A stretch of DNA of 64,000 nt from Nemertoderma westbladi. Its lineage: Eukaryota > Animalia > Xenacoelomorpha. Below, piece after piece: positions 9,128 through 38,628 of this stretch; the stretch's first letter is position 1; each line of letters starts with the position of its first letter. Where the stretch lies: positions 1-64,000 of the forward strand of contig JAUCBJ010006743.1 in assembly GCA_032718475.1 (NCBI GenBank), read 5' to 3'. Both the position numbers and the translations under genes were made by a program. The notes beneath the pieces are model-generated. The model did not search any database. It worked only from the letters and a program-made list of their open reading frames with translations, and was not told the DNA's origin.

Positions 9128-9132
9128 AAGTT

Positions 9133-17000: not shown

Positions 17001-18683
17001 GCATCGGGCTACCCTCCGGCCCGGTCTGATAAAAACGGAGTCAGACCAGCCCCAATGGTGGTGGGACAGCGTCTGCCTTGTGGGTGCGCCTCGGGGAGGA
17101 GCCCAGAAGGACGCAAGTGTCCATCATCACTACTCCAGGATGAAGATCGCTAGTGATACTCCTCCACTGAAATCTGCGCAGGTCCATGCTATTAAAGATC
17201 TTCCCAAATACAAGGTATCGGAGCGATTTCTGACGGAGAAGATCAGTTACCAGGAGCATGAAGAAACCAATAAGAAGATACTGAGACTCCTACAATGCTA
17301 TGAAGATTCCGATAAGTATTTCCTGTTGTTGAGAAATCCACAGATGCGCTTAAGGGATCGCTTCTCTAGCACAATGATAGATGGGTTAATACGTGTTGGA
17401 GGGAGACTAATTAATGCTCCATTATCCTTTGACACTAAATTTCCCATACTCATTAGAAATCTTGAAATACAAATCAAGATGATTGTAGCTGTTCACAGTA
17501 GGCTTTACCATGCTGGTAGAGAACGAGTTCTTAGCGAAATTCGAACTCGCTATTATTTTCATAAACCCCGTAGAGCTCTGAACCAAGTTCTTAGGAACTG
17601 TATACCCTGTAGGAAAGCATTCAGTAGGCCATTAACACAGCGAGAGGCAGAATTACCTAGGGAACGAGTAAGCTTCTATAAACCACCCTTTACTAATACC
17701 GGTGTGGATTTATTTGGCCCTATTGAAGTATATCGTGCTAGGACTATAGTCAAGCGATGGTGTGTCATCTTTGTCTGTATGACTTGTAGAGCGATCCGTC
17801 TAGATATCAACAGCTTCATATTTACGCCATGTACTTCATGTTTACGCCGACAGATTGCTCGCTTTGGAACTAGCAACACGATGAGATCTGATAAGGGAAC
17901 GAACTTCATTGGCGCCAATAATGAGATCAAGGCTTACGTTAAAGATTGGAACCAAAGACAGCTGGACGATCAGCTAAGGGTAACAGCATCTAGCTGGTTT
18001 TTCTAGCTAGAGGAAGTTGGGAGAGATTAATAAGAAGCGTGAAGACCGCATTTCACTTTATAGTGCCGTGCCGCGCGTATCTCACCGACGAACTTTTGCG
18101 GACGTTAATGGAAGAAATCGCCGCCTATCTTAACGAGAGACCGCTTATGCCAGTCTCATCAAGTCCCGACTCCCTGGAAGAGCTAACACCCGCGCACTTC
18201 CTACTGAAGAAACCTGTAGCCATGCTACCACGATCGGAAATCACGGACGGAGATGAATACTGCCGACAAACTTGGCAACTTATGCAGTTGTTATCCCGTC
18301 GTTTTGCTGACCATTTCGAAAAACATTATCTGCCTACACTACAACTTCGAACCAAGTGGTTTGCGCAGCAAGAAAACGTCAGCGCTGGAGACATGGTTCT
18401 TATTGTGGAATCAGATCTTCCACGTAGACGGTGGCAGACAGGTCGTATCATCGAGACTCATATCTCCGATGATGGTTTAGTGCGATCTGTAGAACTCGTT
18501 GTCATGCGACGTAACTTTAAGAAACCTGGAATTGTATTCGAAACGCAGCAGCTCAATCGCCCAGTTGGTCGTTTATGTTTACTGGAAAGAGACAGAGAAC
18601 TATCTGGAAACTATGGAAGGCAAGATACTCTTCCCACGACCACCTCCCTAATCCTGCAAACATTTAGGGACTCCCCAACGTAG
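11065..18683 (+). pseudogene. element A gag-pol (Gag, aspartic protease, RT, RNase H, integrase), fragmented by stops and frameshifts
   Basis: Gag: FNGDEMKW, CALCDGPH, CYNCLRQGH, CAKCSAKHHILLH. PR: LLDSGS. RT: RVVFDGS, DIEGMFLQV, YMDD (14508-14519). RNase H: FGDAS, NPADIASRG. IN: H-H-CIPC, GVDLFGP, SDKGTNF, LTPAHFL, DGLVRSV. Confidence 0.93.
15793..17138. mobile_element. unidentified ~1.35-kb insertion within element A pol
   Basis: Bel similarity stops after YLKR and resumes at MKIASD. Excising 15793-17138 restores the in-frame sequence AAG CGA TG|G ATG AAG (KRWMK). No recognisable domain inside. Confidence 0.65.
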
Positions 18684-20412: not shown

Positions 20413-23400
20413 ATGACTGAGTTGATAGAAGATGATCTTGGTATCAGGGAGCGATATACCTTACCGTTGCAAGCGTTTGTTGATAGCTTAATACACGGCG
20501 ACGCTAGTCTAACTACTACGGAGGATGATGGCCGTTATATCGAACCGCCAATGTCCAAGGAACAACTCACGCGTGAATTGGACTATAGAAAATTCACCGC
20601 TTGCTATACGCATTGTAATGGTACTTATATGGACTTCTTAACTACTGGTCATCCTATTGATTTACACGATACGGATGGTGTAGACACCGAAAGGGAAATG
20701 GTTCTATTTAAATATCATACCCAGCGGAGTCGGAACGACAAACCGAGAATCGAACATAAGAATTATATTCGAAACCGACTCGAAAGAGAAGACGTTGAAG
20801 AGCCGGATAAACGCAGCGACTTCAACGAATATCTGGAATTCTTGAGAGAAACATATCTCAATATTGCCAGTCAACAAAATCTAGAAACTCGATATCCTCA
20901 AGGTATACATCATGACCCTATGATAGAATTCAAACGGCTCTATTTCACTATGATGTATCTTACCGTCGATCGACCGCTACCTGTTGTCCCAGATAGTTTC
21001 GAACAGATGGAGGAATATTGTAAAACTGGAGAACGATCACCCGCGTTTCCCCTACAGGACGTGCGTCTTTGGTATTATTGCGATGAATGCCCTAGACCCA
21101 ACCAACAAACTGAAAGACATAAACACCCGTGGAGACGTTGCGCTAAACACAGTTTTACTCGCTATACTTACGGGAGTTTCGAGCAAAACTTGTTCAACGT
21201 ATCACCTACGCTCGCTCGACTCAAACGTTCCTTAAATAAACCCATGATCGGAGTTCCGGAATACTCGGTCAGGCCTCTTCATTCCCTAGTGAGACCCCAA
21301 ACTCTTGATCCTAATAGTATCACGGATCCTCCCGAACTGTACTCACTGTTCAAAGATTTGGTGTTACCCGAACAATTAATCGGTGGCACCCCAGTAGTGG
21401 GCTCTCTAGATATTCGCCCATCGTACCTATCCGGATTGGGACGCGGACATCTAATATCGCCATTCAACCCATACAATCGTCTCAGTTTAACCCCGATACA
21501 ACCCGTCACTGAAGTTGAGGAGGGCGTTGTACGAAATGCGTTAGACGCTATTTGGCAGAAGATCGGAAAGGGAACCTACGATTGTTTAGAGAAACGCCGA
21601 TTGCAGCAACAAGTCCAAGCGGTGAAGGAGTTGGCCTTACCCCAGTTTGATCGAGAAATCCAGAACCTCGAGGAAGACATCGAACTTGTACGAACCTATT
21701 CTCTACAAGAGTTTTTAGACAAACGCTTACAACGACAAGTGGAGGAAAATCAGCTCAAGGAGAAACACATCGAAATGGATGAGAGAGAAGTAGCAGCTTT
21801 AGCCCAACCAGAAGCTCAAATCCTTATGACTGATCTCTATTCCAAAACCATCATTCAACCCTCGATGGTTCCCCATTTCGGAGACAAACTCTTCGCAACG
21901 GTACAACCCCAACCGGTTGATATCAACCTGAGATCTCAAGATCTTATTGCTGACGCTCCTATGTTACAGCGTCCGCCAATCGAGGCCGCTCGTGTCGACG
22001 GTATACTCGTTGAACCTCCGGACAATCGAGCGGATCTTGTCCGTCGTATGGTACACGAAGTCAACATACGCGCTAGACCTTTACCGAACTCGTTTTATGG
22101 GATCAAAGACCACCCTTATTATGTCAATCTAACACAATATTATATGGTAAAACCGGAAGATCCGACACATAGTCTAAAGTTTCTACCTCTAATAAATCCT
22201 CTCGATCTTGTTGAACTCGAACAATTGCAGAAACATCTGGATCAGTTAGTGAAAGTAAACTCATTCAGAAAACCCTACAATGTTTCCAGAATAGAGAAGG
22301 ATATGACGCCTCCGTATAATCTCGATGGATTTATCAAAACTCGATTAGTCCATTGGAATCTCGGCGTATTATTCGAGGAAGAGAGAATACAAAGATATGG
22401 AGATGTAGAGACGTATACTACACAGTATCTGAAGTATAGGGATCTCCCTAACGCTAGCGAATGCGCCACCTTGTGGCATCCGGTCGGGATGACCCTAGAG
22501 AACGCCACTAAAGAGTGGAACGAAACTCTTAACGTTATCGAAATGTATGGAGTTGTCACTTATGATAACAAAGGTAGTGTTCCGGTCGGAGAACTGGGAA
22601 CTACGCGCATGATACATATACGAGGACTAGCTGGTTCTACCCACGTGTTTACTCGAGCGTGTTTTGATGTGATTGATTATTCTTTTGAGACTCTCACCGA
22701 GATACAAAAGAAACTCCGACATAGACAATTCGAACTCGCGCAGCGTTACGTCACGGATACTGAGCATAAACCGGCCATGGGTATAGATGGATCGATGTTA
22801 CCCCAGCCAGTGCTTGAGATGTTGTTTATTGAAAGAATCCTTAAAATCGGCTCAGCTGTTTATGGAGATCTCCAAAACGACTTCAGGAACATGGAGAATA
22901 TTCCATATCCTTTCGTAGACACCCAGCTGATTGCTCCCTGGGCAGAAGGGCAAGGTTTCTTCCGAACTATGTATGCCAATACACCCAGCGGCATAAATAA
23001 AGTACAACGAACCTCCATCGGACATCTTGCCTTCCAAGAATACGGATGGAATTTCAAAGTAGGAAACCCTATCAACTATCAACAAGTATATGGAGATCAT
23101 TATTCTCGATTATACTTCGACGGACCATTGACCGCACCTGGCGTCGTGTATAGCTTCATGAGTAGACTTCATGAGGTTCCCCTTTGCCCCTCATTAGCTA
23201 TATACACTATCCTCGAGAACGCCGCACTTGCCGGTTGGATAGCTGATGAGTGCAGTCGTACTATACGCGCCTATCCCTTGATACTTGGAACCAAGCTCGC
23301 CAAGCTAGATGGACACAATAAATTCATCCGCTTCGAATGCTTTAGGCACTTTCTGACTCCATTCCGTAACGTTGATAGTCAGTTCAAGGACCGCGCTCTG

Positions 23401-23631
23401 ACCAAGCTCAGCCTAAGAGACTCAGCTGCTGAGAAGTTAGACAGTGCTGGATTCACCATTTTCAAAGACGTGTGTATACAGAACTTACATTCCTCTGTTA
23501 TACAAAGACCTCGAATCCCCACGGGTTATTCTATTGTGGAAGTTCAGACACTGGGTTTGCTTGAGGAGACAGCTACACCTATCTCCGCTATGCAATTGGA
23601 AGACGAACCAAAATGCTTACAATCCGATTAG
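20413..23631 (+). CDS. element A accessory ORF3 (1072 aa): unknown N-terminus plus DEDDy-like 3'-5' exonuclease domain; frame continues past the TAG into a zinc-knuckle-like motif
   Basis: GVVTYDNKG (ExoI, E>K), LPQPVLEML...KIGSAVYGD (ExoII), FVDTQ and IYTILEN (ExoIII-like) align colinearly with element B ORF3. In-frame CRLCASQDH follows the stop codon. Confidence 0.72.
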   Translation: MTELIEDDLGIRERYTLPLQAFVDSLIHGDASLTTTEDDGRYIEPPMSKEQLTRELDYRKFTACYTHCNGTYMDFLTTGHPIDLHDTDGVDTEREMVLFKYHTQRSRNDKPRIEHKNYIRNRLEREDVEEPDKRSDFNEYLEFLRETYLNIASQQNLETRYPQGIHHDPMIEFKRLYFTMMYLTVDRPLPVVPDSFEQMEEYCKTGERSPAFPLQDVRLWYYCDECPRPNQQTERHKHPWRRCAKHSFTRYTYGSFEQNLFNVSPTLARLKRSLNKPMIGVPEYSVRPLHSLVRPQTLDPNSITDPPELYSLFKDLVLPEQLIGGTPVVGSLDIRPSYLSGLGRGHLISPFNPYNRLSLTPIQPVTEVEEGVVRNALDAIWQKIGKGTYDCLEKRRLQQQVQAVKELALPQFDREIQNLEEDIELVRTYSLQEFLDKRLQRQVEENQLKEKHIEMDEREVAALAQPEAQILMTDLYSKTIIQPSMVPHFGDKLFATVQPQPVDINLRSQDLIADAPMLQRPPIEAARVDGILVEPPDNRADLVRRMVHEVNIRARPLPNSFYGIKDHPYYVNLTQYYMVKPEDPTHSLKFLPLINPLDLVELEQLQKHLDQLVKVNSFRKPYNVSRIEKDMTPPYNLDGFIKTRLVHWNLGVLFEEERIQRYGDVETYTTQYLKYRDLPNASECATLWHPVGMTLENATKEWNETLNVIEMYGVVTYDNKGSVPVGELGTTRMIHIRGLAGSTHVFTRACFDVIDYSFETLTEIQKKLRHRQFELAQRYVTDTEHKPAMGIDGSMLPQPVLEMLFIERILKIGSAVYGDLQNDFRNMENIPYPFVDTQLIAPWAEGQGFFRTMYANTPSGINKVQRTSIGHLAFQEYGWNFKVGNPINYQQVYGDHYSRLYFDGPLTAPGVVYSFMSRLHEVPLCPSLAIYTILENAALAGWIADECSRTIRAYPLILGTKLAKLDGHNKFIRFECFRHFLTPFRNVDSQFKDRALTKLSLRDSAAEKLDSAGFTIFKDVCIQNLHSSVIQRPRIPTGYSIVEVQTLGLLEETATPISAMQLEDEPKCLQSD

Positions 23632-23813
23632 ATTCAGCCCACAGCGCCCCGGAGCAGTGACAACGACTACGTTTTGGAATGGTATCAAGGTCCACAATGT
23701 CTTACTGCGTATGATTATCGACATGCCAATTATGTCTCCAGGAAACGTTGTCGATTGTGCGCATCTCAAGACCATTTCACCCCGGTGGACTCCAACGTAC
23801 CCTGCTCCTACTT

Positions 23814-24350
23814 TGTGACGGGATCCAGGAGGGATCCCGATTTATCCGATGTGGTATTTAGTCCACGCGTCCCCGCCGTGTATAAGAGTGAAATAAAGAT
23901 AACTGAGTTCTGAAGTTCGGTGTATAATAAGAGGTTATAGGATATAGATATATTGTGAATGTGTACAAGGCGGGATACGGTAACTAAAGTCCCGTGATCC
24001 CCTAACTAAACTAATTGGCTGTACCCTACGCTAGCACTGCTGCACTGAGATAACTGAATCACTGATTAATAGGTTATTGGTTATATTGCACGGTGGCCTT
24101 ACTGCTACTCAATCGATGCCATTCCCCCCTCTGATTGGTTAATACCCTTGTTGGCGCCCCGTGGAGTATTCCCGTTCACTCCACCTGTTCTCTCTGGGTT
24201 AGGGGTTTGGCCCCTGACCCTCTATTGTGTGCTTCCTTCCCACTCTTATTGGGATGGCACGAGTTGGTTAATTGCCCAATCTCGTGGCTCCCAATATTGC
24301 TTATCGGCTAATAACTTTATGGGGTGTTGGCGGGATTGAATAAGCTAACA
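23814..24350 (-). repeat. 3' LTR of element B (537 bp)
   Basis: TGTGACGGGATCC...TAAGCTAACA; direct repeat of 37521-38058 with 5 differences seen (4 substitutions, 1 indel). Confidence 0.96.
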
Positions 24351-24359
24351 CTCCCCCCC
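24351..24359 (-). promoter_or_regulatory. polypurine tract of element B
   Basis: Minus-strand GGGGGGGAG immediately precedes TGTTAGC of the 3' LTR. Confidence 0.85.
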
Positions 24360-25059
24360 ATGCTATCTTCCCGGTAAGAAGATAGCATCAACCAAAAAGT
24401 GCGCTACAATCCCGCTGGATCCCGATCTAGTATCGGGTGTGGGGTGGAATTCTTTTCTCTTGGAGCCGGCTTTCCAGGCCGCCCCCTATGGGTATGATAA
24501 CGCTACCCTGTGTGCCTGGCGTCTCATGTCGGGCCGATCGCGCTCACCTCTTCACGCGATTTTTGTTTCCCCAACACTTTCGCCCTACCTCCCCTCTACT
24601 CTCACCCTAACTCTCTCATACCCCCGGACCTCCTCGTCCCTCACTCAGCCTCTTATTCTCCCCCCCCCCACACTAGAATTGCGCTCGCACTCTCTCCGCA
24701 CTTCACACTCTTATTCCGATTCTCAAGTCCACTTTGACTGTTTTATCTCTCCTGACGAACCTCCCCCCCCCTCTCGTGCCGCCGCACTCAAGAAGTGTGA
24801 AATTGTCAGTTGTCTCGTCCATAGTGCCATAGTCAATTGTCCCCCAGTCCCAGTAGCTAATTGAGAAAGGTTGTATGACTATAGTACTTACTCCAAACGT
24901 ATGTATTTTACTGCTAATCACTACGTACGTACATACGAATTGCACTTATATGGTTATTTGCAATAATTAAATTTATACTTAATAGTTCGTACGTTACATG
25001 CGGCGCCTTCCAGGCGCACCACGTCCCAGTCTCAGTCTCATTCCCTCGCCTCCGGGAAC

Positions 25060-27594
25060 TTATCTGTACCTCCTCACGTCCTCCTCCCTGGCCCGTTTCT
25101 TGGTTATCACCGCTCCTCTGGCATCATCCGCTTTCTGCTTCCGGACCTTTGCCGCCACTTCCTTGCTGATCCCGGTCGTCGGCTCCTTGGGCGCTGGTGT
25201 TATTAAAGCCCGATACCGCTTCGCCGGTGGCCCCTCAGAATGGCCTGGTTGTTTCCCTCGTGTGGCGTCCCATAGGATCATCTTCATTGCCTTTGGTACG
25301 TGTTCCGCCAAGAAATCCCTAAACTCCCTCCGGTTCTCTGGTGTCCACCTGTCCAGGTACCGTTGCGTGTTCATAACTCCGGCGAACGATGCCGCCGTAG
25401 CTACCTCTTGATAGGTAAACGGTAACCTTCGCTTTATGATTTCCATGTGGGTCTCCTGGTTTATGAGGAAGAAACCCCACTTGAACTCTTGGGCCTTCAT
25501 GCGCTGGCGCATCATGGCCCCGACGTCGGCCCACTCCTCGAACCTCGTGAACTTCTCCTCGTCACTCATCCAGTCGCACTCGCGCCCGTAGTGTCCCCGA
25601 AAGTGGCACTTTGGACATCGGTTATGCAACCGTGGACACGCCCCCATCCTGTGACTTGGTTCTCTACAATAGAGACAAAAGGTTCCCCGTTGGAACCGGT
25701 ATAGGCAGCTGCTTTCCTGATGGGTCTGTCTCCCACAGTAGTCGCAGCCGAGTACCAATGTCTCGCGTCCCACCTCGTCCTTCGTCCCAAGCGATCTCCG
25801 CGGTCTATGGAGTCGCTGGTAGGCAAACTTCTCCACGTTGCTCTCCCTGTTTACGTCGATCTCTCCGCCCCTCTCGGGCATCGTCTCCCCGAATACTATC
25901 CGTGGTGCCGTCCCCGGTTGCTCGCCCAACCTGATGGTGCTCCCCGCGAAATCCATCGCCGGCCCCTCGTGCACACAGGTCCGCTTGCCGGATCTGTTCC
26001 AGAAGGCCCTCGCCCCACTGGCCGTCACCACCCTTCCGCCAACCCAGTCCGTGTCCGAGTGGCCTATCCTTTCGATGGGCGGCATCTCTCCGAACTCGTC
26101 GTCGTCGTCCTCCTCTTCTGGTAGTGTCTCCAATCCCGGTATCCCGATGGATCCACTATGTCCCTTCCCGCCTTGGCTCTCGCCCGTAGCTCTCCATCCC
26201 TCTAGCTCCCTTAACTTCCTTGGCGGTTGGTCGCCCTCGGCGCCCGCTGGTATGGGCATCGCGTGCAACCCCGACGTCGACTGTTTCGGCGATCCCACCG
26301 TCCATCCCAATTCTCGCCCTAGAGACTCCCCCGAACTCCCCGACGAAGTCCAATGAAGTTCGTCTAGGCCCGCCTGTTCCTCGAAGCCGTAACTCTGTGC
26401 CCTGGCCTCCTCTTCCCTCTCCTCTGCTTCTATCCTCTCCCGTCTAGCGACTTCTTCCAGTCGCTTTGCTTCCCGTCTATCCATCTCTAGCTGCTCCCAT
26501 CTCTGATACGGTGTATCCGTCTCCCCATCTACCAGATGTCGGCTGTTGTAGTACACCGACTCGCCCTTCAGCCCCGGGTGGTCTACCAGACCGTCAAAGG
26601 CCGTCTTAAAGGCTCTCCTGTAGCTTAGGGGTGATCCCGATAACAGAAATGCCCCTGGTTCTCTTTCGATAACTACGGTCATGAATAAGTTAAGTAAACT
26701 TATCATCATCCAGTCCTCCTGCAGGATATATCGCTTCTGATATACCTTTATCGCTCCTCTGCGAAACTGATATACCTCCTGCTTTCCCGGTCTCGCTCCC
26801 CACTTCAGCGAGTTCGCTAGTTCTGCTCCGTATTCTTCCCTAAACTTCCCCCAATCCATTGGTTTGTGGCATACGAGCCCCAATAATTGGCCCATCGCCA
26901 CCGCCCCGCATTGGCCTGAGTTCTCGACCACCCCCAATCCATCCGGTGCCGTCATAGCCATAAAGACTTTCTGCATATCCAGGAGGTTGGTGGCGTCCGG
27001 ACCGATGATCCTCTCCGCGTCCTCGCGAATCGCCGATCCCACTTTCGTCGTCGACTTCTCTCTTACTAAGACCTGTACCGCTTTCGGCAGTCGGTCTAAT
27101 TTCGGCCCGTCCTTCTTCCCATACGTCCCTAGGTCGAATAAGAAGATGTCCCCATTTGGCGCTGCCAAATGCAAGAGTATGGTCCTGGCCGACCCTGCCG
27201 TTCCTCGTCTCGAACCCGCTTCGTCTTCCACGGTTCCCTCGTCATCTAGGATCATATATCCTCCTCTGTTGACGGACTCTATGAATCTTTTCCAGTCCTT
27301 CCTCGGCGATTCCCTCGGATACTTCGGAATCCCGAACTTCGCCTCGTCTCCTTTCACCACGTAGTGGAAGTGTTGGAAGATCGCGTTGTCCAGCGACGGC
27401 GTCCCGTAGGTCCCGACCAACCGCTGTTCGTGCGCCTCCCGGAAGTGATCCTGCAGCGCTCGTGCCGCGTGACCCCTTTCCAACCTCTCGTAGTATCCTC
27501 TCGTCTTCTCCTCCGGGTGTCTTTCGGTGAAATCCACCAATATTTCTTTTCCTCCTGACTCCGCCTTTCTCTTCCTGATCAGCTTACTCGCCAT
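25060..27594 (-). CDS. element B accessory ORF3 (844 aa from first ATG): DEDDy-like 3'-5' exonuclease, acidic/coiled linker, three CCHC zinc knuckles
   Basis: Exonuclease motifs: YMILDDEG (ExoI DxE), LLHLAAPNGDIFLFDL, LPKAVQVLV...KVGSAIRED (ExoII), NLLDMQ, QKRYILQED (ExoIII-like). Knuckles: CDYCGRQTHQESSC, CLYCREPSHRMGAC, CPKCHFRGHYGREC. Basic N- and C-terminal NLS-like patches. Confidence 0.85.
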   Translation of the reverse strand: MASKLIRKRKAESGGKEILVDFTERHPEEKTRGYYERLERGHAARALQDHFREAHEQRLVGTYGTPSLDNAIFQHFHYVVKGDEAKFGIPKYPRESPRKDWKRFIESVNRGGYMILDDEGTVEDEAGSRRGTAGSARTILLHLAAPNGDIFLFDLGTYGKKDGPKLDRLPKAVQVLVREKSTTKVGSAIREDAERIIGPDATNLLDMQKVFMAMTAPDGLGVVENSGQCGAVAMGQLLGLVCHKPMDWGKFREEYGAELANSLKWGARPGKQEVYQFRRGAIKVYQKRYILQEDWMMISLLNLFMTVVIEREPGAFLLSGSPLSYRRAFKTAFDGLVDHPGLKGESVYYNSRHLVDGETDTPYQRWEQLEMDRREAKRLEEVARRERIEAEEREEEARAQSYGFEEQAGLDELHWTSSGSSGESLGRELGWTVGSPKQSTSGLHAMPIPAGAEGDQPPRKLRELEGWRATGESQGGKGHSGSIGIPGLETLPEEEDDDDEFGEMPPIERIGHSDTDWVGGRVVTASGARAFWNRSGKRTCVHEGPAMDFAGSTIRLGEQPGTAPRIVFGETMPERGGEIDVNRESNVEKFAYQRLHRPRRSLGTKDEVGRETLVLGCDYCGRQTHQESSCLYRFQRGTFCLYCREPSHRMGACPRLHNRCPKCHFRGHYGRECDWMSDEEKFTRFEEWADVGAMMRQRMKAQEFKWGFFLINQETHMEIIKRRLPFTYQEVATAASFAGVMNTQRYLDRWTPENRREFRDFLAEHVPKAMKMILWDATRGKQPGHSEGPPAKRYRALITPAPKEPTTGISKEVAAKVRKQKADDARGAVITKKRAREEDVRRYR

Positions 27595-28099
27595 TCCGAA
27601 CACTACACTCGCTCACCTGTAGGGTGGTGCCTTACCAAGGCGCAATACAGATGAGTGATGTATTAAGATGTTCCGATACAGTTCGATAATGGCCTACTTT
27701 TCTACTTAACTGCGCCTTTCAAGCTTAATTTAATCTAATTAATTTCGGAGCTAGTAAATCAGCCTAATTTACAATTTCCGTCCGTTACTTTTATTATGTT
27801 CTAGAACGACTTTCTTTGTGTTACCACTATTTTCCGATTTTAGCCCTATTCTATTTATTTGTTTATTTTGCTTTGATTCTACTGTCCTACTACTTACTAC
27901 TGCCTATGGATTTATTCTATTCTCTCTCTGATCCATATTCTGGCCTACTCAGTGGGCCTATGCAGTACAGCAGTATGCGTCGTGTGGCCACACGATTTAT
28001 CCAGCTGCACTCATATGCCCCCCTCTCGCTACTAACTCTACTTATTGCTAACTAATATCTATATCCTATTTACCCCTTTTACCTCTTACTCTCTCTCTC

Positions 28100-28803
28100 T
28101 AACTAATGGTACTACGTACCCTCTAACTCTAACTCTGACTAGGTACCACGTACCTACTAACTCTAACTCTAACTAGGTACTACGTACCTACTAACTCTAA
28201 CTCTAACTAGGTACTACGTACCTACTAACTCTAACTCTAACTAGGTACTACGTACCTACTAACTCTAACTCTATCGGTACTACCTACCCTCTAACTCTAA
28301 CTCTGACTAGGTATTACGTACCTACTAACTCTAACTATCGGTACTACGTACCCTCTAACTCTAACTCTAACTAGGTACTACGTACCTACTAACTCTCTAA
28401 CTATCGGTACTACGTACCCTCTAACTCTAACTCTAACTATGTACTACGTACCTACTAACTCTAACTCTATCGGTACTACCTACCCTCTAACTCTAACTCT
28501 AACTAGGTACTACGTACCTACTAACTCTCTAACTATCGGTACTACGTACCCTCTAACTCTAACTCTAACTAGGTACTACGTACCTACTAACTCTAACTCT
28601 ATCGGTACTACCTACCCTCTAACTCTAACTCTGAGTAGGTATTACGTACCTACTAACTCTAACTATCGGTACTACGTACCCTCTAACTCTAACTAACTAG
28701 GTACTATGTACCTACTAACTAACTAATTTTAGGTACTACGTACCTACTAACTAACTAACTAACTAACTCTAGGTACTACGTACCTACTAACTAACTGACT
28801 AAC
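28100..28803. repeat. array of ~21 units (~31-40 bp): GGTAC-TAC-GTACC hairpin plus (CTCTAA)n spacer
   Basis: Repeated TAGGTACTACGTACCTA / TCGGTACTACGTACCCT separated by CTAACTCTAACT, lying between pol and ORF3 of element B. Confidence 0.92.
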
Positions 28804-28913
28804 TCTTATTTTTATTTTATTTTATTTTATTTTGTGTGGGAAGGGCGTCTCGCCCTCAATCCCACCCCCCTCAGTCCAAAACTTGGACGACTAAACTCCA
28901 CACTAACTCCGCT

Positions 28914-31900
28914 CTAAGGTGCTCCTTCTAAGAGACAGCATTTACCTACCGCTCTCCTGTAGGTTTTTATGTCCTTTGCACCTATCTTTCCACCTATCCG
29001 CACTTCCACCGATCGGACTCTTCCGTCCTCGTCGGAGTAGGTGCCTACAACTCTCGCCAACCGCCACTGGTTGTTGATAATAGTATCATCCGTGACGATT
29101 ACGAGATCTCCCTCTCTTAACTCCCTGTTCGGTTTCCTCCACTTGCTTCGCTTATGGAGTGTGGGTAGGTATTCCTCTACCCACCTTCTCCAATACTCTG
29201 CGCTAATTGCTTTAGCTACTTTCCAACTTTGGCGGGAGTGTATATCATCTGGGTCTACACCCCGCATATCGATGGTAGCTGGCCTTTCCATCAGGAAATG
29301 GCTAGGCGTCAACACGTCTAATGACTCAGGGTCATCATTCTCCGGGTATAGCGGTCTGCTATTAATGATCCCCTCGCACTTCGCAAGTACTGTCCGTAAG
29401 ACGTCTTCAGTGACCATGTGGGTGTTCATCAGCTTCGTCATTAGACGTTTTGAACTGCCCACGAGTCTCTCGACGCATCCTAACGTATGTGGTGCATACG
29501 GCGTCCTTCTCTCCCACTTCACTTGTCGTCTTCTCATGGCCGCTCTGACTTCTTCTCCCTCCAAGATGTCTAAGGCCTCTGCCATCTCACTCTCTGCGCC
29601 CACAAAATTGGTGCCGTTGTCGCTATATATCACCGCGATCGTCCCACCTTTGCGGTCCCTAAACCTTTCTAAGGCGTTAATGAACGCTGATGCGGTTGCA
29701 TCTTGGGCGAGTTCTATCCCTACCGCCCGCGTATTGTTGCATACGAAGATAATGCCGTAACGCTTCTCCGTGTGTCGCATCACTTTGATCTTTATCGGCC
29801 CGAACATGTCCACACCGCAATGCGTAAATGGCGGGTCGTGCTGTCTTACCCTACTCGCCGGTAGTGGCGCCATCTCCTGTACGGCTCGTTCCTTCTTCGC
29901 TCGCCGGCAGGTCTGGCACTGCCCCACTACCGCTTTAACCTTCTTCCTTAGTTGTTTGACCCAATAGGTCCTCCTTATCTCTGTGAGGGTTCGGTTGGTG
30001 CCCCCATGCAGTATCGATTTGTGGGAGTCCCATATGATCTGGTGGACTATAGGCGATCCTGTGGGAATGATGATGGGTTTCGGTGGCACGACTATACTGT
30101 TGTTATATCCCACCCTAGAATTCATTACTAGAATCCCATCCTCGTTGAGTTGTGGCGACAGCGTGATCAACTCGCTATCCCGTCGGAGGTGCTGTTGGTT
30201 ACCGACGCGTTCCACCTCGTCGCCGTAGTTCTTGCGTTGTTCATAGCGGATCACTGCCTTGGCCGCTCCTTCCAGATCTATGGTTGTCCTGGTCTTCTTG
30301 TCCTTGCCGACTCCCGCAAGGAAATTCCCAAAGGCTCTCCAGTACGCCACTAGTTTCTTGGTCTTATACCAACTAGAACTGTAGCTGAGGAGTTTATCCG
30401 TCGGGTTATCGCACAGTTCCCTTCCTGGTTGCACGTCCCTGATCTCCCTCACCATCTGGGAGTATATCTCTTCTCCCTCTGAATCTCCTTCTCCTTCTGA
30501 TACTGGTTCCGAGCCCGGGTCCACCTTCCTCATCGGCGGCCAGGCTTCTCTATCGCTCAGAAATTGTGGCCCATGTTGCCACAATACTTCCTTCTTCAGG
30601 AAAGTGTGGCGTTCCACGCCCCTCGACAGCAAGTCCGCTGGGTTCTCATCTGTTGGGCAGTAGTGCCACCTTTCCAGTTCTGTGCTCGCCCTTATTTCGT
30701 CCACTCTATTCGCGACGAATATCGGGTATCTCGTCTTTTCGTTGTGTAGCCAACCAAGCACTACCATGGAGTCCGTCCAGTAGTGTGTCTCCACTATGTT
30801 GGGAATTGTATCCACTAGGTAGGCTGTGGCTCTAACTCCTAGTCTCGCAGCTGTCAATTCTAACTTGGGAACAGATGCTGAATCTGGCGGCGTTGACTTA
30901 GCTTTGCTAAAGGCTAGTCTGGGCTTGTGAGGCCCCTCTCGTTGTACTAAATAGAGTGCCGCTCCGTATGCCTCTAACGACGCGTCGGAGAACATATGTA
31001 GGTCCAGATTCGTCATGTTCCCGTCCGGGAAATACACTCGCGGCATGTTGTATGTTCCCATCCTCTCCAAGTCTCCTGTCCATTTGCTCCACTGTTTCTT
31101 GATGTCTTCTGGTACCTCTACGTCCCACTCATCCTTCAACTTATATACTCTCTTGAGTATCTGTTTCCCCGTGACTAGTAATGGGGATGCTAGGCCTAAG
31201 GGATCGTATATCCTTGCTATATACGATACGTAACCCCTCTTCGTATGGGTGTCTGCGCCCTCCTGGCTCAGCTGATACTTCAGTTCGTCTGTTTTTCTAT
31301 CCCACACGATTCCCAACGCCTTCTGCTGGGATTCCGTTCTCTTAATCGCCATGTCCTGTCCTTTGGCTGTTGTAGGGTTGTCCATGGTCGATTCTGGTTT
31401 CTTGTCTTCTATTTCCCTGATAAATTCTTCTGAACTGGATTGGAATTTGGTCAGGTTGAAGCCGGATCCTTTCAGGATGTCGCGAACCTCGCGCCCTGTT
31501 TCCAGTATCTCCTCAACCGTATTTCCAGACTCCATGCCGTCGTCTACGTAGAAACCGCGTCTGATCATATCGACGGCCCTACTGCTATATCTATCTTCCT
31601 TGCCCTTTACCGTGTCTCTCACTGCCATAGTCGTCGTAAATGAGGACGACTTGGCCCCCATATTTTGTACTACCATCTTATACGCTGGTATTACCGGCGG
31701 TTCTTCTTCGCCGTTATACCATAAGAAGCGTTGACTGTCACTATCTTCTTCTGTTACTCGGACTTGGTTGAACATGCCTTCTATGTCACACGTGAAGGCG
31801 TGTTTCCCATTCCTAAATCTAAGTAGTACTTCTATGCCCGAATTGTATATGTTTGGGCCCTCTAGTAGGTAATCGTTTAAGCACTTTCCGTCGGTCTTTG

Positions 31901-34900
31901 CCGATGCATCGACTACCATCCTAAGTTTACCTTTCTTTGGGTCTAAAGCTACGTGGAGTGGCAGGTAGTATGTCCTGTCCGTGTTCGGTTCGTCGACCGG
32001 TAACTCCACGGCCCATCCTTTCTCGACGTACTTCTTGATCGTTTTGTGAATGTACTCGTTCTTCTCGGGGCTCCGTTGTAGTGTTTGTTTCAGCTTGCGG
32101 AGTCTCGTGAGTACCATCCCTCTATTATCGGGTAGCGGTATCTTCGGTAGTTTCCATACCATTCCTATTGTATACCGCCCCTCATCACACGTCATCGATT
32201 CCTCCACACTTTGTAGAGCCTGCTTGTCTTCTACCGAGGTCCCGACCCCGGTCTCTTTCAGTCCCTCGAAGTCCTGTCTGAGCAGTCTTTTAAGCTGCTC
32301 CTCTGCTCCCTCGTCACCCATTTCCTGCATTGTTCCCGCGAACATGCATCCTGATGTCTCCGACATCCTGAATGGTATCTTGCTCTTAATTGGACCACTC
32401 AGCGTCCACCCGAATGGCGTTAATATGGCCACCGGGTCGCTCTGCTTGTCTTCGCCGAAGACCGTTTGCATTCTCTCGTGGGCCGTTGGGCAGTCCATGC
32501 CTACTATGATGGATACCTTCCTAACGTCCACGTCTGGGATTGAGAAGTCAATGTTGTCCAGGAATTTGTATTGCTCGACCTCGATGTTGGTTGGCCGCCT
32601 GGCATTGATGTTAATTGACTCTATTACTTGGATGGGGTCGATGGTTGCCCCATAATCGCATCCTGGTGCCACTGCTGCAATTGCGCACCGTCCTGTCCTC
32701 ATCTCTAGGATCTCGTCTTTGCTAGAGATGGTTGTCACCGCCATCCTGCTTGGCCTCGTTCTCAACCCTATTTCTTCGGCTACCCATTCCTCAACTAATG
32801 TGAAGGCAGCTCCACTATCAACCAGCATTAGTGTTGTTACTGATCGATTGCCTTCCCCGATCACTCGTACTGGTACTACTCCAAGTAGCACTGTTCCTCT
32901 CTTCTTCGCCCCTACTGTGCTCGTTGCCATCGTCTGGCCTCTCCTTTGGCCAAACTTGACCGGTTTCTCTTGGCATTCCCTGGCCTTGTGTCCACTCTTC
33001 ACACATCGCGAGCAGATTTTATTGCTCGACGCGTAATCTATCTGGTCTTGCCTCGGTAGCGCCTGCCAGTACCTGCAGTTCATGGTTTTATGAAGCGCAT
33101 TTGCGTGTAACTGGCATTTGCTCTTTGGGTCGTAGCCCTCTTTATACAATGCATTGCGTATCGCAGTCATATTCGTACCAAAGTCCCTACTATTCTTATT
33201 GACTGGGTTTGACCTACTGGACGTACTGGGGTTATGTTTATTCATGTTGTTATTGTTCCCCTGTCCGTCCCTTGATGTTGTCTTATCTTCGTTTGTCTGT
33301 GGACTTGCAGTCCCCTGCGTTGCTGCGTATGGCAATGATTGTCTGAGCCTCGGCAATGCGTTTGATGTATTGTGCTCCGGTTTGGGCCTGTAATGATCTG
33401 TCTTTGGTCCCTTTCCCAGGCTATCTTCACTATAGACTGGGTCCATTATTAGTTCAGCCTCGTAATTTAAGAAGTTTGACATTTCTTCTAAACCTGGTTC
33501 CGCACCCTTCTTGTCTCGGGTGGAGAAAGCGATCTTCCTCCATTTATTGCGCAGCCAACTCGGTAGTGCCTGCGCTATCGTGGTGATGTTATTGGACGCG
33601 TTGAGCTCGTATGGCGCGTCTAGCGTCTTCAGCACGATCAGCGCCTTCTCGACTTTGTTAGCAAACGTCTTAATGCTAACGGGGTTATCCTGTAGGCCAC
33701 CCGATGTTATGCCTCTCAGCGTCTGCCTGATGATCTTGGCCGGGTGCCCGTATTCCCTATCCAGTGCCCGCCATGCTGTCGTGAAGCCGCCCTCTATTCC
33801 CTGATATTGCCTCACGATGTCGTATGCTGGGCCTCCCGTGTACACTTGTAGATACTTTAGGCACTCCGCCTGCGTCAAGTTTTTTGTTAGTATTTCGTTA
33901 CTATACATTCGCCGAAATTGTAAGTATTCTTCCGGCCTGCTCCCATCGAATTTGAACGGTTCCACGGGTGGTAATTCGATCCTCGTTTTCAACGCATCGA
34001 TCAACGTGGCCATCCCCATTGCCTGCGCTTCTAATGGATTCGACGGGTGCTGTATAGTTTCCCCTGTCTGGTGCGGTTCGTCCGTCCTATTTCTTGATCT
34101 TCTCTGACTCGGATATGTCATCAGGGGTAGCGGCCCCCTCCATATGTCTGTATCACACGACCTGTTTCCATCTAGGGGTCTCGTTGTTCTTGTTCCTGTC
34201 GGGGTATATTGTTGATATTGCGATGGGGGAATGTCACCCTGTCCCCCCCCCACTGGTATGTCTGGTACTGGGGTTGATGTTAATATGTTGGGGCCCATAC
34301 ACCTATCCGCAATAATTCCCCCCTCCCCTGGGTATATGTTATGTCCCTGCATGCTGTAGTCATACTGCTGTGCTGGTACCGGTATAGGCCTATCAGCTTC
34401 CGGCCTACTCGCCGGTATGTATTCCGCGACTTCCGGGTTTAATCCCGTTGTCCGCGCTATCCTATCGCCTACATCGCCTCTCTCAGTATGGCCTACGGTA
34501 TGTGCAGTAAGACCTACAGTATGCCCTATAGTCTGCATGTGTTGCTCGGGATCGAAGTTTATTCTTCTCGAATAATCCTCCCCGCGGCTACCGTATTCTC
34601 GATCGGTAGGTATATTCCGCCGGAAAGTTTCTCTTCGACCCCCCTCTCCACTGTTTTCATCTTCGTACCGGTACATCGCGTACCCCTCTCTCGGCGTGTA
34701 ATGCGTCTCACCGGATCGCATCCCTCCGGGGCGACGGCAATCTCCCGGAGTCCGACCCCATTGACTCTCCGTTCTCATCTCGACTATCGACGGCTCGCTG
34801 TCCGTCCTCGCTCTTCTATCGTTTGCGGCGATACTTCTACTACTCTCTTCCTCTCTTCTCCTATCAGTGGAATATTCCCGCTCACGAGATCTCTCGTCGA

Positions 34901-37404: not shown

Positions 37405-37520
37405 CTCGTCTGGTCGGTGGAGTTCGGCTAGCTAGCAGTGTAGTTCTTAGAGTTTAACTGGGGCGGCAGCTCGGATTTAGTTACTGAGTTTAGCTGGGGA
37501 AGCAACACCGTTTTAGTTAC

Positions 37521-38058
37521 TGTGACGGGATCCAGGAGGGATCCCGATTTATCCGATGTGGTATTTAGTCCACGCGTCCCCGCCGTGTATAAGAGTGAAA
37601 TAAAGATAGCTGAGTTCTGAAGTTCGGTGTATAATAAGAGGTTATAAGATATAGATATATTGTGAATGTGTACAAGGCGGGATACGGTAACTAAAGTCCC
37701 GTGATCCCCTATCTAAACTAATTGGCTGTACCCTACGCTAGCACTGCTGCACTGAGATAACTGAATCACTGATTAATAGGTTATTGGTTATATTGCACGG
37801 TGGCCTTACTGCTACTCAATCGATGCCATTCCCCCCTCTGATTGGTTAATACCCTTGTTGGCGCCCCGTGGAGTATTCCCGTTCACTCCACCTGTTCTCT
37901 CTGGGTTAGGGGTTTGGCCCCTGACCCTCTATTGTGTGCTTCCTTCCCACTCTTATTGGGATTGGCACGAGTTGGTTAATTGCCCAATCTCGCGGCTCCC
38001 AATATTGCTTATCGGCTAATAACTTTATGGGGTGTTGGCGGGATTGAATAAGCTAACA
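37521..38058 (-). repeat. 5' LTR of element B (538 bp)
   Basis: Direct repeat of 23814-24350; several CCAAT boxes on the element's sense strand. Confidence 0.96.
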
Positions 38059-38628
38059 AATAAAGGATCTGCAAAGAAAAGAACCCAATGCTATATAATT
38101 TGACCTTATTAAAAAATTTGCACTTTTGCACACTTATTTGTACAAGTGCACTTCAGCAGATCGTAATGGTGGCTCTTATTTAACAAACTTATGTTTATCC
38201 TCTACCGATCTACGATGGTGTATGATCAAGTGTCAGTCACTAAAAGTGTAAAAAATCTAATTTAATAAATCGCGACATTTGCGATTTTGGACCATTTTCA
38301 TGGGCATTTTAAGTCACTTTATATACATAAAAAGTTAAACAAATGTTACGATTATAGTTAGAAACCACTCCAAACGACATTTTAATCCAAAAAATAACAT
38401 TATACGATGAATGGAACTGGAAATAATAGTGTTTGAAATATCGAAAAAATGTGTACTTTTTAAGTGCATTATGCACTAAGAGCACATGCGTCTTTTCCCA
38501 AGTTGTATCCTATTTCACACACTACAATCTATCCTCTACCCAATGAAAAAAGTTTCAGATCAAACGGTCCAGTAGAACAGAAGTTATTGATGTTTAAAAA
38601 TAATCACTCGAAAATTTCAAATTCTCTT

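What the first reader, a model, noticed from the sequence alone, without database searches (positions are those of the whole stretch)
25060..27594. Bel/Pao LTR retrotransposon carrying an intact DEDDy-like 3'-5' exonuclease / triple zinc-knuckle gene in the env position
Seen: an uninterrupted 844-aa sense ORF lies between pol and the PPT/3' LTR of a young element. It has ILDDEG (~27238-27252), LLHLA...IFLFDL, LP..V.......KVGSAIRED, LLDMQ and QKRYILQED, then three CX2CX4HX4C knuckles (~25575-25748). No TM or signal peptide was seen, so it is not an env. Established: this motif series matches the DnaQ/DEDDy domain of WRN-exo/EXD2/EXD1/Mut-7(Nibbler)/RNase D, several of which act in piRNA/small-RNA pathways. 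From memory, DEDDy cargo ORFs were reported in bdelloid rotifer retroelements; I do not recall this exonuclease-plus-knuckle architecture as a standard Bel/Pao feature. Inference: an element-encoded RNA-binding exonuclease that could counter small-RNA silencing, trim RNA/cDNA ends or proofread RT.
Basis: partly seen in the sequence, partly recalled or inferred. Interest (0 to 1): 0.9.

Follow-up and report, generated by a model that had tools for sequence, protein, structure and literature searches.

The report
Bel/Pao retrotransposon with exonuclease-like cargo gene
A young 14-kb Bel/Pao jumping gene carries, where retroviruses keep their envelope gene, an intact 844-residue gene with three zinc knuckles and a domain that is likely a distant relative of the RNase D/Werner-type 3'-5' exonucleases, a kind of cargo so far described in print only for rotifer elements of other classes.

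Summary
A 14,245-bp Bel/Pao LTR retrotransposon lies on the minus strand at 23814-38058. Its LTRs differ at 5 of 538 columns. Between pol and the polypurine tract sits an open 844-codon ORF3 (25060-27594) with three exact CX2CX4HX4C knuckles and no membrane segment.

The exonuclease reading is likely but not proven. Pfam, NCBIfam, PADLOC, PHROGs, PDB and billion-protein searches find nothing. Both AlphaFold runs failed (pLDDT 32), so the fold is untested. Several weaker tests point to one family:
- Language-model look-alikes are all PF01612 (30 of 30, best 0.95).
- Targeted tests against 51 RNase D-type domains give p about 0.003-0.03.
- ExoI D-x-E and the ExoII D align; ExoIII is unresolved.

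The strongest support was unplanned. A second ORF (20413-23631, plus strand) lies downstream of an older, broken Bel/Pao pol. It carries a homologous domain that matches the exonuclease profile clearly (E 3.4e-5, 0 of 5000 shuffles) but has lost two catalytic residues. A profile of both domains hits only RNase D in the PDB.

I read this as a new variant of a known kind: the DEDDy ORF3 of bdelloid Juno/Vesta elements, here in Bel/Pao. Function, copy number and selection remain untested.

The parts
23814..24350 (-). 3' LTR of the young Bel/Pao element (537 nt, TG..CA)
   Evidence: 4 substitutions and 1 indel against the 5' LTR over 538 columns
24351..24359 (-). polypurine tract GGGGGGGAG abutting the 3' LTR
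   Evidence: read directly from the sequence
25060..27594 (-). ORF3, 844 aa from the ATG (847 from an upstream in-frame GTG at 27603): the cargo gene
   Evidence: GC3 0.67 and RSCU r 0.77 with pol; no TM segment
26668..27315 (-). RNase D/WRN-like (DEDDy-like) domain, about aa 97-312
   Evidence: ESM atlas: 30 of 30 named hits in the PF01612 set, best 0.95. hmmsearch: 13 of 5000 shuffles reach the real score. BLASTP against E. coli RNase D: E 8e-4. hhalign: colinear, P 0.05. Two-sequence profile: P 0.0045, 0 of 136.
27238..27246 (-). ExoI D120-x-E122
   Evidence: aligned to the family D-x-E by hhalign and by MAFFT --add
27019..27045 (-). ExoII KVGSAIRED, with D195 on the family's ExoII aspartate
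   Evidence: HMMER local alignment, hhalign, MAFFT
26713..26778 (-). ExoIII region, register unresolved: Y278/R282, Y288/Y292 or Y292/E296
   Evidence: disagree
25576..25746 (-). three CX2CX4HX4C zinc knuckles (aa 620-676)
   Evidence: weak PDB matches to retroviral NC and a CCHC protein, E 0.17 and 0.48
27595..28913 (-). 1.3-kb spacer between pol and ORF3: a 34/66-nt tandem array (28097-28792) with a GGTACGTAGTACC hairpin core, then an AT-rich stretch
28914..35243 (-). ORF2, gag-pol polyprotein: DUF1759, one CCHC knuckle, aspartyl protease, RT, Peptidase_A17, integrase, DUF5641
35131..37404 (-). ORF1, 757 aa, repeat-rich, no family. It overlaps the start of ORF2 by 113 nt in another frame.
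37521..38058 (-). 5' LTR (538 nt)
20413..23631 (+). Second cargo-like ORF (P0004, 1072 aa). It starts 1.7 kb downstream of the older broken Bel/Pao pol. That it belongs to that element is inferred from position and codon usage.
   Evidence: RSCU r 0.62 with the old pol pieces
22495..23247 (+). DEDDy-like domain of P0004 (about aa 695-945). The ExoII D and the ExoIII Y are kept. The ExoI E is K and the ExoIII D is S.
   Evidence: hmmsearch E 3.4e-5 with 0 of 5000 shuffles, and hhalign P 0.0012; alignments
11172..18683 (+). Older, degenerate Bel/Pao gag-pol (DUF1759, RT/RNase H, integrase, DUF5641 pieces in at least 10 frame fragments)

Best explanation
ORF3 (25060-27594, minus strand) is an intact third gene of a young Bel/Pao LTR retrotransposon, and its product is likely a nucleic-acid-binding protein that joins a very divergent RNase D/WRN-type (DEDDy) exonuclease-like domain to three CCHC zinc knuckles.

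Shown:
- the element, the ORF, the knuckles and the lack of env features;
- a homologous domain in a second ORF that follows a second, older Bel/Pao pol in the same window.

Likely: the domain descends from the PF01612 group of 3'-5' exonucleases and keeps the ExoI D-x-E and the ExoII D.

Inferred mechanism:
- The protein is made from the element's own transcript, or from a subgenomic or spliced form.
- It would bind single-stranded RNA or cDNA in the element's replication complex through the NC-like knuckles.
- It would trim, or at least hold, free 3' ends there. This is an auxiliary replication factor, not an envelope protein.

The older relative has lost two catalytic residues yet stays open. 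The conserved core function may therefore be 3'-end binding, with catalysis kept only in some members.
For: Element and ORF. ORF3 shares composition and codon usage with pol (r 0.77). It has no flanking inverted repeats that would mark a nested element.

Knuckles: 3 exact patterns, against 1 of 20000 shuffles with any.

Domain, P0001 alone:
- ESM atlas, 372 aa: 24 of 30 hits in the PF01612 set.
- ESM atlas, 237 aa, named clusters only: 30 of 30, scores 0.95/0.94/0.94 with 183/188/183 shared features.
- hmmsearch --max against my profiles of 51 and 43 proteobacterial PF01612 domains: 1.9 bits, reached by 13 and 11 of 5000 shuffles. The local alignment falls on ExoII.
- BLASTP against E. coli RNase D: E 8e-4, aa 239-272 on RNase D 104-143.
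- Best BLASTP score against the 51 domains: reached by 7 of 1000 shuffles.
- hhalign: colinear over 133-134 columns, with D120/E122 on D-x-E and D195 on the ExoII D. P 0.05; 5 of 171 shuffles reach it.
- Natural-sequence control: of 153 windows of 250 aa cut from the four large ORFs, the nine best against the profile are all P0004 and the tenth is the P0001 domain. No gag-pol or ORF1 window scores higher.

Second member, P0004, aa about 695-945:
- hmmsearch E 3.4e-5 (one target), 0 of 5000 shuffles; hhalign P 0.0012.

P0001 domain against P0004 domain (Smith-Waterman, three gap schemes):
- standard gaps (-11/-1): 13 of 1500 shuffles; the same scheme gave 15 of 2000;
- cheap extension (-12/-0.25): 0 of 1500;
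- third scheme (-14/-0.1): 1 of 1500.
- MAFFT gives 24% identity.

Two-sequence profile:
- The only PDB sequence at E<=10, out of 177,635, is 1yt3_A ribonuclease D (E 1.8).
- hhalign against the family: P 0.0045, 0 of 136 column shuffles.

Precedent: DEDDy ORF3 in bdelloid Juno/Vesta LTR elements and Athena/Terminons (PMC5408684, passages; PMC6431247, passages).
Against: - No curated library sees the domain. Pfam gives 0 families at E<=0.1 for the protein and at E<=10 for the domain. NCBIfam, PADLOC and PHROGs give 0.
- PDB phmmer gives 0 at E<=10 for the N-terminal 372 aa.
- phmmer against 1.84 billion representatives returned only a spurious repeat protein.
- All 3 homologous-protein searches were empty.
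- For P0001 alone, hhalign probability is about 1%. My profile of the 21 short stand-alone exonucleases did not report it at all. hmmalign aligned only ExoII.
- The PDB hit of the two-sequence profile has E 1.8, which is not significant on its own.
- Both AlphaFold2 runs were single-sequence and useless (mean pLDDT 32.1 and 32.5). The RNase H-like fold is therefore untested.
- ExoIII is ambiguous. The register favoured by the P0004 alignment puts R282 where the fourth carboxylate should be. Only the MAFFT-to-family register gives Y292-x3-E296.
- No other copy, no expression data and no dN/dS could be obtained.
- P0004's link to the old element rests on position and codon usage only. No LTRs of that element were found.
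- The young element has no recognisable target-site duplication.
Confidence: 0.55

Rival explanations
1. ORF3 is a pseudo-nuclease. The DEDD-derived domain no longer cuts and works only as an RNA or ssDNA-end binding or adaptor module, as EXD1, Maelstrom and Egalitarian do. One possible use is localisation or packaging of the element's RNA.
For: The homologous domain of P0004 has K for the ExoI glutamate and S for the ExoIII aspartate, yet stays open over 1072 codons beside a pol broken into at least 10 pieces. In the P0004-guided register, P0001 has R282 at the fourth carboxylate. Inactive DEDD derivatives that keep RNA binding are cited in the discussion of PMC5408684.
Against: P0001 keeps D120, E122 and D195 at the aligned catalytic positions. 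One register gives Y292-x3-E296.
Confidence: 0.2
2. ORF3 is a counter-defence factor. It would trim, degrade or sequester host small RNAs (piRNA or siRNA) or their precursors that target the element.
For: Cellular relatives of this group (Mut-7, Nibbler, EXD1) act in small-RNA pathways; this is recalled, and mut-7 is named in PMC5408684. The knuckles would give ssRNA affinity.
Against: Nothing in the sequence points to small RNAs rather than the element's own nucleic acids. In rotifers the DEDDy ORFs themselves are covered by small RNAs, and no clear copy-number benefit was seen (PMC5408684, passages).
Confidence: 0.12
3. The N-terminal domain is not a DEDD nuclease relative at all. It would be an orphan fold whose short motifs resemble ExoI and ExoII by chance, so ORF3 would be a zinc-knuckle protein of unknown kind.
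For: All database-wide searches are empty. For P0001 alone every targeted test is only p 0.003-0.05. No structure was obtained.
Against: Independent methods converge on one family out of thousands. The related P0004 domain matches the family profile at E 3.4e-5, with 0 of 5000 shuffles. The matches are colinear across ExoI, beta2-3, ExoII, DTQ and W-x-ARP.
Confidence: 0.1
4. ORF3 is a one-off passenger: a host gene piece transduced recently into this single copy, with no role in the element's life cycle.
For: Only one copy could be examined. The element is young, so an open frame alone says nothing about selection. No target-site duplication is seen, and the two flanks are unlike each other, which hints at rearrangement.
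Against: Codon usage and strand composition match pol (r 0.77). A homologous domain at about 24% identity follows a second Bel/Pao pol that is itself only 30-42% identical to the first. This fits long co-divergence rather than a recent capture.
Confidence: 0.08

Closest known systems
DEDDy-type ORF3 of bdelloid rotifer LTR retrotransposons (Juno, Vesta) and of Athena/Terminon Penelope-like elements (Rodriguez et al. 2017, PMC5408684; Arkhipova & Yushenova 2019, PMC6431247; passages read)
   Same: A third ORF downstream of pol that is not an env, has no TM domain and derives from RNase D-like DEDDy exonucleases. Variant catalytic motifs occur there too (DEDD changed to DEED). The function is unknown there as well.
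   Different: The host element here is Bel/Pao, not Gypsy-like or Penelope-like. The domain is far more divergent: those were found by HHpred with 'strong homology', while here no library profile scores. It is fused to three CCHC knuckles. I held none of the rotifer ORF sequences, so no direct comparison was made.
RNase D / WRN-exo group of DEDDy 3'-5' exonucleases (Pfam PF01612; E. coli RNase D, PDB 1yt3)
   Same: The order is colinear: N-terminal helix, ExoI D-x-E, beta2-beta3, ExoII K-x-G-x-A-x3-D, D-[MT]-Q, W-x-A-R-P. RNase D is the only PDB hit of the two-sequence profile.
   Different: The match is below every curated cut-off. ExoIII is unresolved. There is no HRDC domain. The protein is encoded by a retroelement and carries a long disordered linker, the knuckles and a C-terminal region of unknown kind.
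Dada DNA transposons with an inserted DEDDy domain (Kojima & Jurka 2013, PMC3706591, passages read)
   Same: A mobile element that carries its own DEDDy-type exonuclease, proposed to process 3' ends made during transposition.
   Different: That is a DNA transposon, with the domain inside the transposase and all four catalytic residues kept.
Retroviral and retrotransposon nucleocapsid CCHC knuckles; Air1/2 knuckle proteins that partner the Rrp6 exonuclease in TRAMP/exosome (the latter recalled, not from a call)
   Same: Exact C-X2-C-X4-H-X4-C spacing in a tandem array. Weak PDB matches to a retroviral gag NC and to a CCHC protein.
   Different: The knuckles sit in ORF3, not in gag; gag-pol has its own single knuckle. 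Pfam zf-CCHC does not score them.
Env-like ORF3 of some Bel/Pao and Gypsy elements (recalled)
   Same: Position between pol and the 3' LTR.
   Different: No signal peptide-like or transmembrane segment, and no similarity to any envelope family.

Membership tests
Bel/Pao LTR retrotransposons (Belpaoviridae) | Pao-type pol signature domains (Peptidase_A17, DUF1759 gag-like, DUF5641 C-terminal) | tested here: met
   E 7.5e-40, 1.1e-10 and 4.5e-24, all above the curated cut-offs
Bel/Pao LTR retrotransposons (Belpaoviridae) | Domain order protease - RT - RNase H - integrase in one polyprotein | tested here: met
   coordinates: Asp_protease 791-841, RVT_1 1144-1265, Peptidase_A17/RT_RNaseH_2 1334-1492, Integrase_H2C2 1733-1784, rve 1808-1917
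Bel/Pao LTR retrotransposons (Belpaoviridae) | Direct LTRs ending TG..CA, with a polypurine tract next to the 3' LTR | tested here: met
Bel/Pao LTR retrotransposons (Belpaoviridae) | Short target-site duplication flanking the LTRs | tested here: not met
   the flanks read ...CTACTT and AATAAA..., with no duplication. This may reflect rearrangement and does not bear on the pol-based classification.
DEDDy 3'-5' exonucleases (PF01612, RNase D/WRN-exo group) | Match to the curated family model above its cut-off | tested here: not met
   PF01612 is not reported for ORF3 or for P0004, even at E<=10
DEDDy 3'-5' exonucleases (PF01612, RNase D/WRN-exo group) | Statistically supported sequence relation to family members (ORF3 itself) | tested here: inconclusive
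   Shuffles reaching the real score: 13 of 5000, 7 of 1000, 5 of 171. BLASTP E 8e-4 against RNase D. ESM 30 of 30. The short-exonuclease profile gave no score.
DEDDy 3'-5' exonucleases (PF01612, RNase D/WRN-exo group) | Statistically supported relation for the homologous P0004 domain and for the joint profile | tested here: met
   E 3.4e-5 with 0 of 5000 shuffles, and hhalign P 0.0012. Joint profile P 0.0045 with 0 of 136. Only PDB hit is RNase D.
DEDDy 3'-5' exonucleases (PF01612, RNase D/WRN-exo group) | ExoI D-x-E and ExoII D | tested here: met
   D120, E122 and D195 sit on the family columns. In P0004 the ExoI E is K.
DEDDy 3'-5' exonucleases (PF01612, RNase D/WRN-exo group) | ExoIII Y-x3-D | tested here: inconclusive
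   Three registers: Y278/R282, Y288/Y292 (read by eye), Y292/E296. hmmsearch on the segment aligned only WGARP.
DEDDy 3'-5' exonucleases (PF01612, RNase D/WRN-exo group) | RNase H-like alpha/beta fold | tested here: inconclusive
   Two AlphaFold2 single-sequence runs gave mean pLDDT 32.1 and 32.5. No fold search was run on them.
DEDDy 3'-5' exonucleases (PF01612, RNase D/WRN-exo group) | Metal-dependent 3'-5' exonuclease activity | not testable with these tools
   needs a biochemical assay
CCHC zinc knuckles (nucleocapsid type) | C-X2-C-X4-H-X4-C spacing, in tandem | tested here: met
   three exact matches at aa 620, 643 and 663; 1 of 20000 shuffles has any
CCHC zinc knuckles (nucleocapsid type) | Match to Pfam zf-CCHC above its cut-off | tested here: not met
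   only zf-CCHC_5 at E 0.44
Retroelement envelope proteins | Signal peptide or transmembrane anchor | tested here: not met
   best 19-residue hydropathy 1.3, no window above 1.6
Bdelloid-type DEDDy ORF3 pool (Juno/Vesta/Athena) | Closer sequence relation to those ORF3s than to cellular exonucleases | not tested
   no rotifer ORF3 sequence was available through the tools

The most novel reading that the evidence does not exclude
Bel/Pao elements of this host carry an old, lineage-specific accessory gene family built on a captured DEDDy exonuclease fold. The family switches between catalytic forms (D-E-D kept, knuckle-fused) and dead forms. It acts as an element-encoded antagonist of host small-RNA silencing by trimming or sequestering 3' ends. 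This would be a retrotransposon counterpart of viral silencing suppressors, and a third independent retroelement class that has recruited this fold.
Probability: 0.12. Interest if true: 0.85.

Novelty: new variant of a known kind. Interest (0 to 1): 0.55.

Why it matters
Non-env enzymatic ORF3s in LTR retrotransposons are known from one paper on bdelloid rotifers, in Gypsy-like and Penelope-like elements. This case would extend DEDDy-type cargo to the Bel/Pao class. It adds a fusion with nucleocapsid-type knuckles. It also shows two members at about 24% identity next to two distant Bel/Pao pols in one window, one with and one without catalytic residues.

That pattern suggests a long-kept accessory function that does not always need catalysis. 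Such a function is testable: nuclease and binding assays, copy surveys, dN/dS. If the exonuclease is active, it bears on how large retroelements handle RNA or cDNA ends, or evade small-RNA defence.

My four literature searches found no report of this for Bel/Pao:
- 0 papers;
- 8 papers, none on the topic by title or abstract;
- 1 paper;
- 7 papers.

The library lacks most subscription journals.

Tried and rejected
Readings rejected:
- Env reading: no TM or signal-like segment.
- Nested DNA element around ORF3: only one small palindrome and no terminal inverted repeats.
- P0005, the single hit of the 1.84-billion-protein phmmer search: a 2805-aa repeat protein that matches a 19-residue stretch 14 times, not a relative.

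Searches for relatives that found nothing:
- The search for homologous proteins, three searches.
- Metagenome contigs with ORF3.
- Metagenome contigs with pol: one 1.46-kb contig, too short to hold an ORF3.
- Viral contigs.
- tblastn against phages.
- The scan's own index, by place and by sequence.

Structure: two AlphaFold2 single-sequence runs failed. I did not feed AlphaFold an alignment of the query with bacterial DEDDy domains, because that would impose the fold it was meant to test. No fold search was run on the failed models.

Other dead ends:
- hmmalign and a sub-segment hmmsearch did not settle ExoIII.
- hhalign in global mode gave nothing.
- LTRs of the older element were not found.
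- No whole genome is held for the window. So copy number, expression and selection could not be examined.
Full report
OBSERVATION. The ORF exists as described. The ORF listing gives 25060..27603 on the minus strand (847 codons from a GTG). The cited motifs are present:
- ILDDEG at aa 118-123
- LLHLA at 143
- IFLFDL at 153
- KVGSAIRED at 187-195
- LLDMQ at 207
- QKRYILQED at 289-297
- three exact C-X2-C-X4-H-X4-C knuckles at aa 620, 643 and 663

Only 1 of 20000 shuffles of the protein contains even one such knuckle pattern. No 19-residue window exceeds a Kyte-Doolittle mean of 1.6 (best 1.3), so there is no membrane anchor.

THE ELEMENT. Two direct repeats of 537 and 538 nt lie at 23814-24350 and 37521-38058. 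They differ by 4 substitutions and 1 indel over 538 columns, start TG and end CA, and bound a 14,245-bp element on the minus strand. A polypurine tract GGGGGGGAG abuts the 3' LTR.

ORF2 (28914-35243, 2109 aa) is a Bel/Pao gag-pol. It has DUF1759, one CCHC knuckle, an aspartyl protease, weak RVT_1, Peptidase_A17 (E 7.5e-40), Integrase_H2C2, rve and DUF5641. ORF1 (35131-37404, 757 aa) is repeat-rich and matches no family.

Between pol and ORF3 lie 1.3 kb. This stretch holds a 34/66-nt tandem array (28097-28792) with a small hairpin core, followed by an AT-rich stretch. I saw no target-site duplication. The two flanks also differ in kind: GC-richer old-element DNA on one side and AT-rich DNA on the other.

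ORF3 shares the strand composition of the element. Its codon usage correlates with that of pol (r 0.77), and its GC3 is 0.67. No inverted repeats flank it. It is therefore part of the element and not a nested insertion.

IS THE N-TERMINAL DOMAIN A DEDDy EXONUCLEASE? Database-wide methods say nothing:
- Pfam reports 0 families for ORF3 at E<=0.1 and for the isolated domain at E<=10.
- NCBIfam, PADLOC and PHROGs report 0.
- PDB phmmer gives only two weak CCHC hits for the whole protein (E 0.17 and 0.48). It gives nothing at E<=10 for the N-terminal 372 aa.
- phmmer over 1.84 billion representative proteins gave one hit, a repeat protein matching a 19-residue stretch 14 times, which I reject.
- Three word-seeded searches of 5.8 billion clusters gave nothing.
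- Scans of metagenome and viral contigs and of phage records also gave nothing.
- Two AlphaFold2 runs without an alignment (372 aa and 246 aa) gave mean pLDDT 32.1 and 32.5. The fold itself remains untested.

- ESM atlas, 372 aa: 24 of 30 nearest clusters fall in the PF01612 set. The first three are unnamed, mostly basidiomycete clusters.
- ESM atlas, 237-aa domain, named clusters only: 30 of 30 fall in that set. Scores are 0.95, 0.94 and 0.94, with 183, 188 and 183 shared features. The clusters are called 3'-5' exonuclease or Werner syndrome-like exonuclease. By the tool's own calibration, 0.95 is reached by about 1 in 100 shuffled proteins.

I then built profiles from 51 proteobacterial PF01612 domains fetched with the genome search and the fetch from genomes.
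- hmmsearch without filters scores the ORF3 domain at 1.9 bits. This is reached by 13 of 5000 shuffles with the 51-sequence profile and 11 of 5000 with the 43-sequence profile.
- A profile of the 21 short stand-alone exonucleases did not report it at all.
- The HMMER alignment falls exactly on ExoII.
- BLASTP against E. coli RNase D aligns aa 239-272 with RNase D 104-143: 17 of 40 identical, E 8e-4 for the single comparison.
- The best BLASTP score against the 51 domains is reached by 7 of 1000 shuffles.
- hhalign gives one colinear alignment of 133-134 columns. D120 and E122 fall on the ExoI D-x-E, D195 on the ExoII aspartate, LLDMQ on the family's D-T-Q, and W-G-A-R-P on W-x-A-R-P. The statistics are only P 0.05 and probability about 1%, and 5 of 171 shuffles reach the score.

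A SECOND MEMBER IN THE SAME WINDOW. As a natural-sequence control, I cut the four large ORFs of the window into 153 windows of 250 aa and scored them against the profile. The nine best windows all came from P0004. The tenth was the ORF3 domain. No gag-pol or ORF1 window scored higher.

P0004 is a 1072-aa ORF on the plus strand (20413-23631). It starts 1.7 kb downstream of an older Bel/Pao gag-pol (11172-18683). That gag-pol is broken into at least 10 frame fragments and is only 30-42% identical to the young pol.

The P0004 domain (about aa 695-945) matches the exonuclease profile with E 3.4e-5 for the single test. None of 5000 shuffles reaches it. hhalign gives P 0.0012. The alignment covers ExoII (LKIGSAVYGDLQ), F-V-D-T-Q, and G-P-L-T followed by V-V-Y-S-F-M-S.

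The two domains also resemble each other. Smith-Waterman scores, by gap scheme:
- standard gaps: reached by 13 of 1500 shuffles (15 of 2000 in the first run of the same scheme);
- cheap gap extension, which lets the blocks chain: reached by 0 of 1500;
- a third scheme: reached by 1 of 1500.
MAFFT gives 24% identity.

A profile of the two domains finds exactly one PDB sequence at E<=10 among 177,635: 1yt3_A, ribonuclease D. Its E of 1.8 is not significant alone, but it is the named family. hhalign of that profile against the family gives P 0.0045, and 0 of 136 column shuffles reach it.

P0004's codon usage tracks the old pol pieces (r 0.62, GC3 0.43 against 0.44). That it belongs to the old element is inferred from position, strand and composition. 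No LTRs of that element were found.

CATALYTIC RESIDUES. ORF3 keeps the ExoI D and E and the ExoII D. ExoIII is unresolved, with three candidate registers:
- MAFFT, adding the domain to the family alignment, puts Y292-x3-E296 on Y-x3-D, after a 12-residue insertion.
- The alignment with P0004, and hhalign's extended alignment, favour the earlier V-Y-Q-F-R-R. That gives Y278 and R282.
- Y288/Y292 is a third register, read by eye.
Sub-segment searches did not decide between them.

P0004 has K at the ExoI glutamate and S at the ExoIII aspartate, so it is probably inactive. It is nevertheless a 1077-codon open frame beside a pol with many breaks.

MECHANISM. Shown: ORF3 is a real, intact, non-env third gene with three NC-type knuckles, and it has a homologue beside a second Bel/Pao. 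Likely, at about 85% in my estimate: the domain descends from RNase D/WRN-type DEDDy exonucleases.

Inferred: the protein binds single-stranded RNA or cDNA through its knuckles and trims or holds 3' ends in the element's replication complex. The dead relative suggests that end-binding, not cutting, may be the conserved core. Rivals are a pure pseudo-nuclease adaptor, an antagonist of small-RNA silencing, an unrelated orphan fold, and a neutral passenger. Their weights are in the Rival explanations section.

COMPARISON WITH WHAT IS KNOWN. Rodriguez et al. 2017 (PMC5408684) describe DEDDy-type ORF3s in bdelloid Juno and Vesta LTR elements and in Athena elements. I read passages of the abstract, sections 3.3-3.5, the discussion and the legends. 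They report no TM domain, a DEED variant motif, unknown function, and no clear departure from neutrality.

Arkhipova and Yushenova 2019 (PMC6431247, 4 passages) list DEDDy exonucleases among Terminon cargo. Kojima and Jurka 2013 (PMC3706591, 2 passages) report a DEDDy domain inside Dada transposases of Laccaria and Ectocarpus.

My four searches for the same in Bel/Pao found nothing on the topic:
- 0 papers;
- 8 papers;
- 1 paper;
- 7 papers.
These were judged from listings only.

Unchecked notes of this scan mention Gypsy elements with Rrp6-like exonuclease ORF3s in other invertebrates, one of them fused to a zinc knuckle. I used these as leads only.

VERDICT. I rate this a new variant of a known kind: DEDDy-like cargo in a Bel/Pao element, knuckle-fused, with an apparently inactive relative next door. 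Fold, activity, copy number, expression and selection are open.

Noticed in passing
window 20413-23631 (+): A 1072-aa intact ORF (P0004) with no Pfam family lies downstream of a broken older Bel/Pao pol. Its C-terminal part is a DEDDy-like domain homologous to that of ORF3, but with K at the ExoI glutamate and S at the ExoIII aspartate. Its staying open beside a decayed pol could mean selection or domestication.
   Followed up: yes
window 47052-64000: A 36-bp satellite of about 468 copies at 96% match runs off the end of the window. It is free of stop codons in several frames on both strands, which creates sham ORFs of more than 2000 codons.
   Followed up: partly
window 28097-28792: A 34/66-nt tandem array of about 21 units, each with a GGTACGTAGTACC hairpin core, lies in the spacer between pol and ORF3. 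A 201-nt piece folds with z -2.9. It might be an RNA element or an internal regulatory array for ORF3 expression.
   Followed up: partly
window 23800-23813 and 38059-38075: The young element has no recognisable target-site duplication. Its two flanks differ in kind: old-element DNA on the left, AT-rich DNA on the right. This hints at rearrangement, inter-element recombination or an assembly join.
   Followed up: partly
window 35131-37404 (-): ORF1 of the young element (757 aa) has KEREAERKEREA-type repeats and an Asn-rich tract and matches no family. It overlaps the gag-pol frame by 113 nt in another frame, so a frameshift or re-initiation is possible.
   Followed up: no
window 7150-10674 (-): LINE-like remains: an ORF with an Exo_endo_phos endonuclease domain (8944-10674) and a weak RVT_1 fragment (7150-8022).
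   Followed up: no
window 41483-42430 (-) and 44721-45468: A 315-aa ORF with weak RING-finger matches, below the Pfam cut-offs, and a 68-bp tandem array of about 7-8 copies.
   Followed up: no
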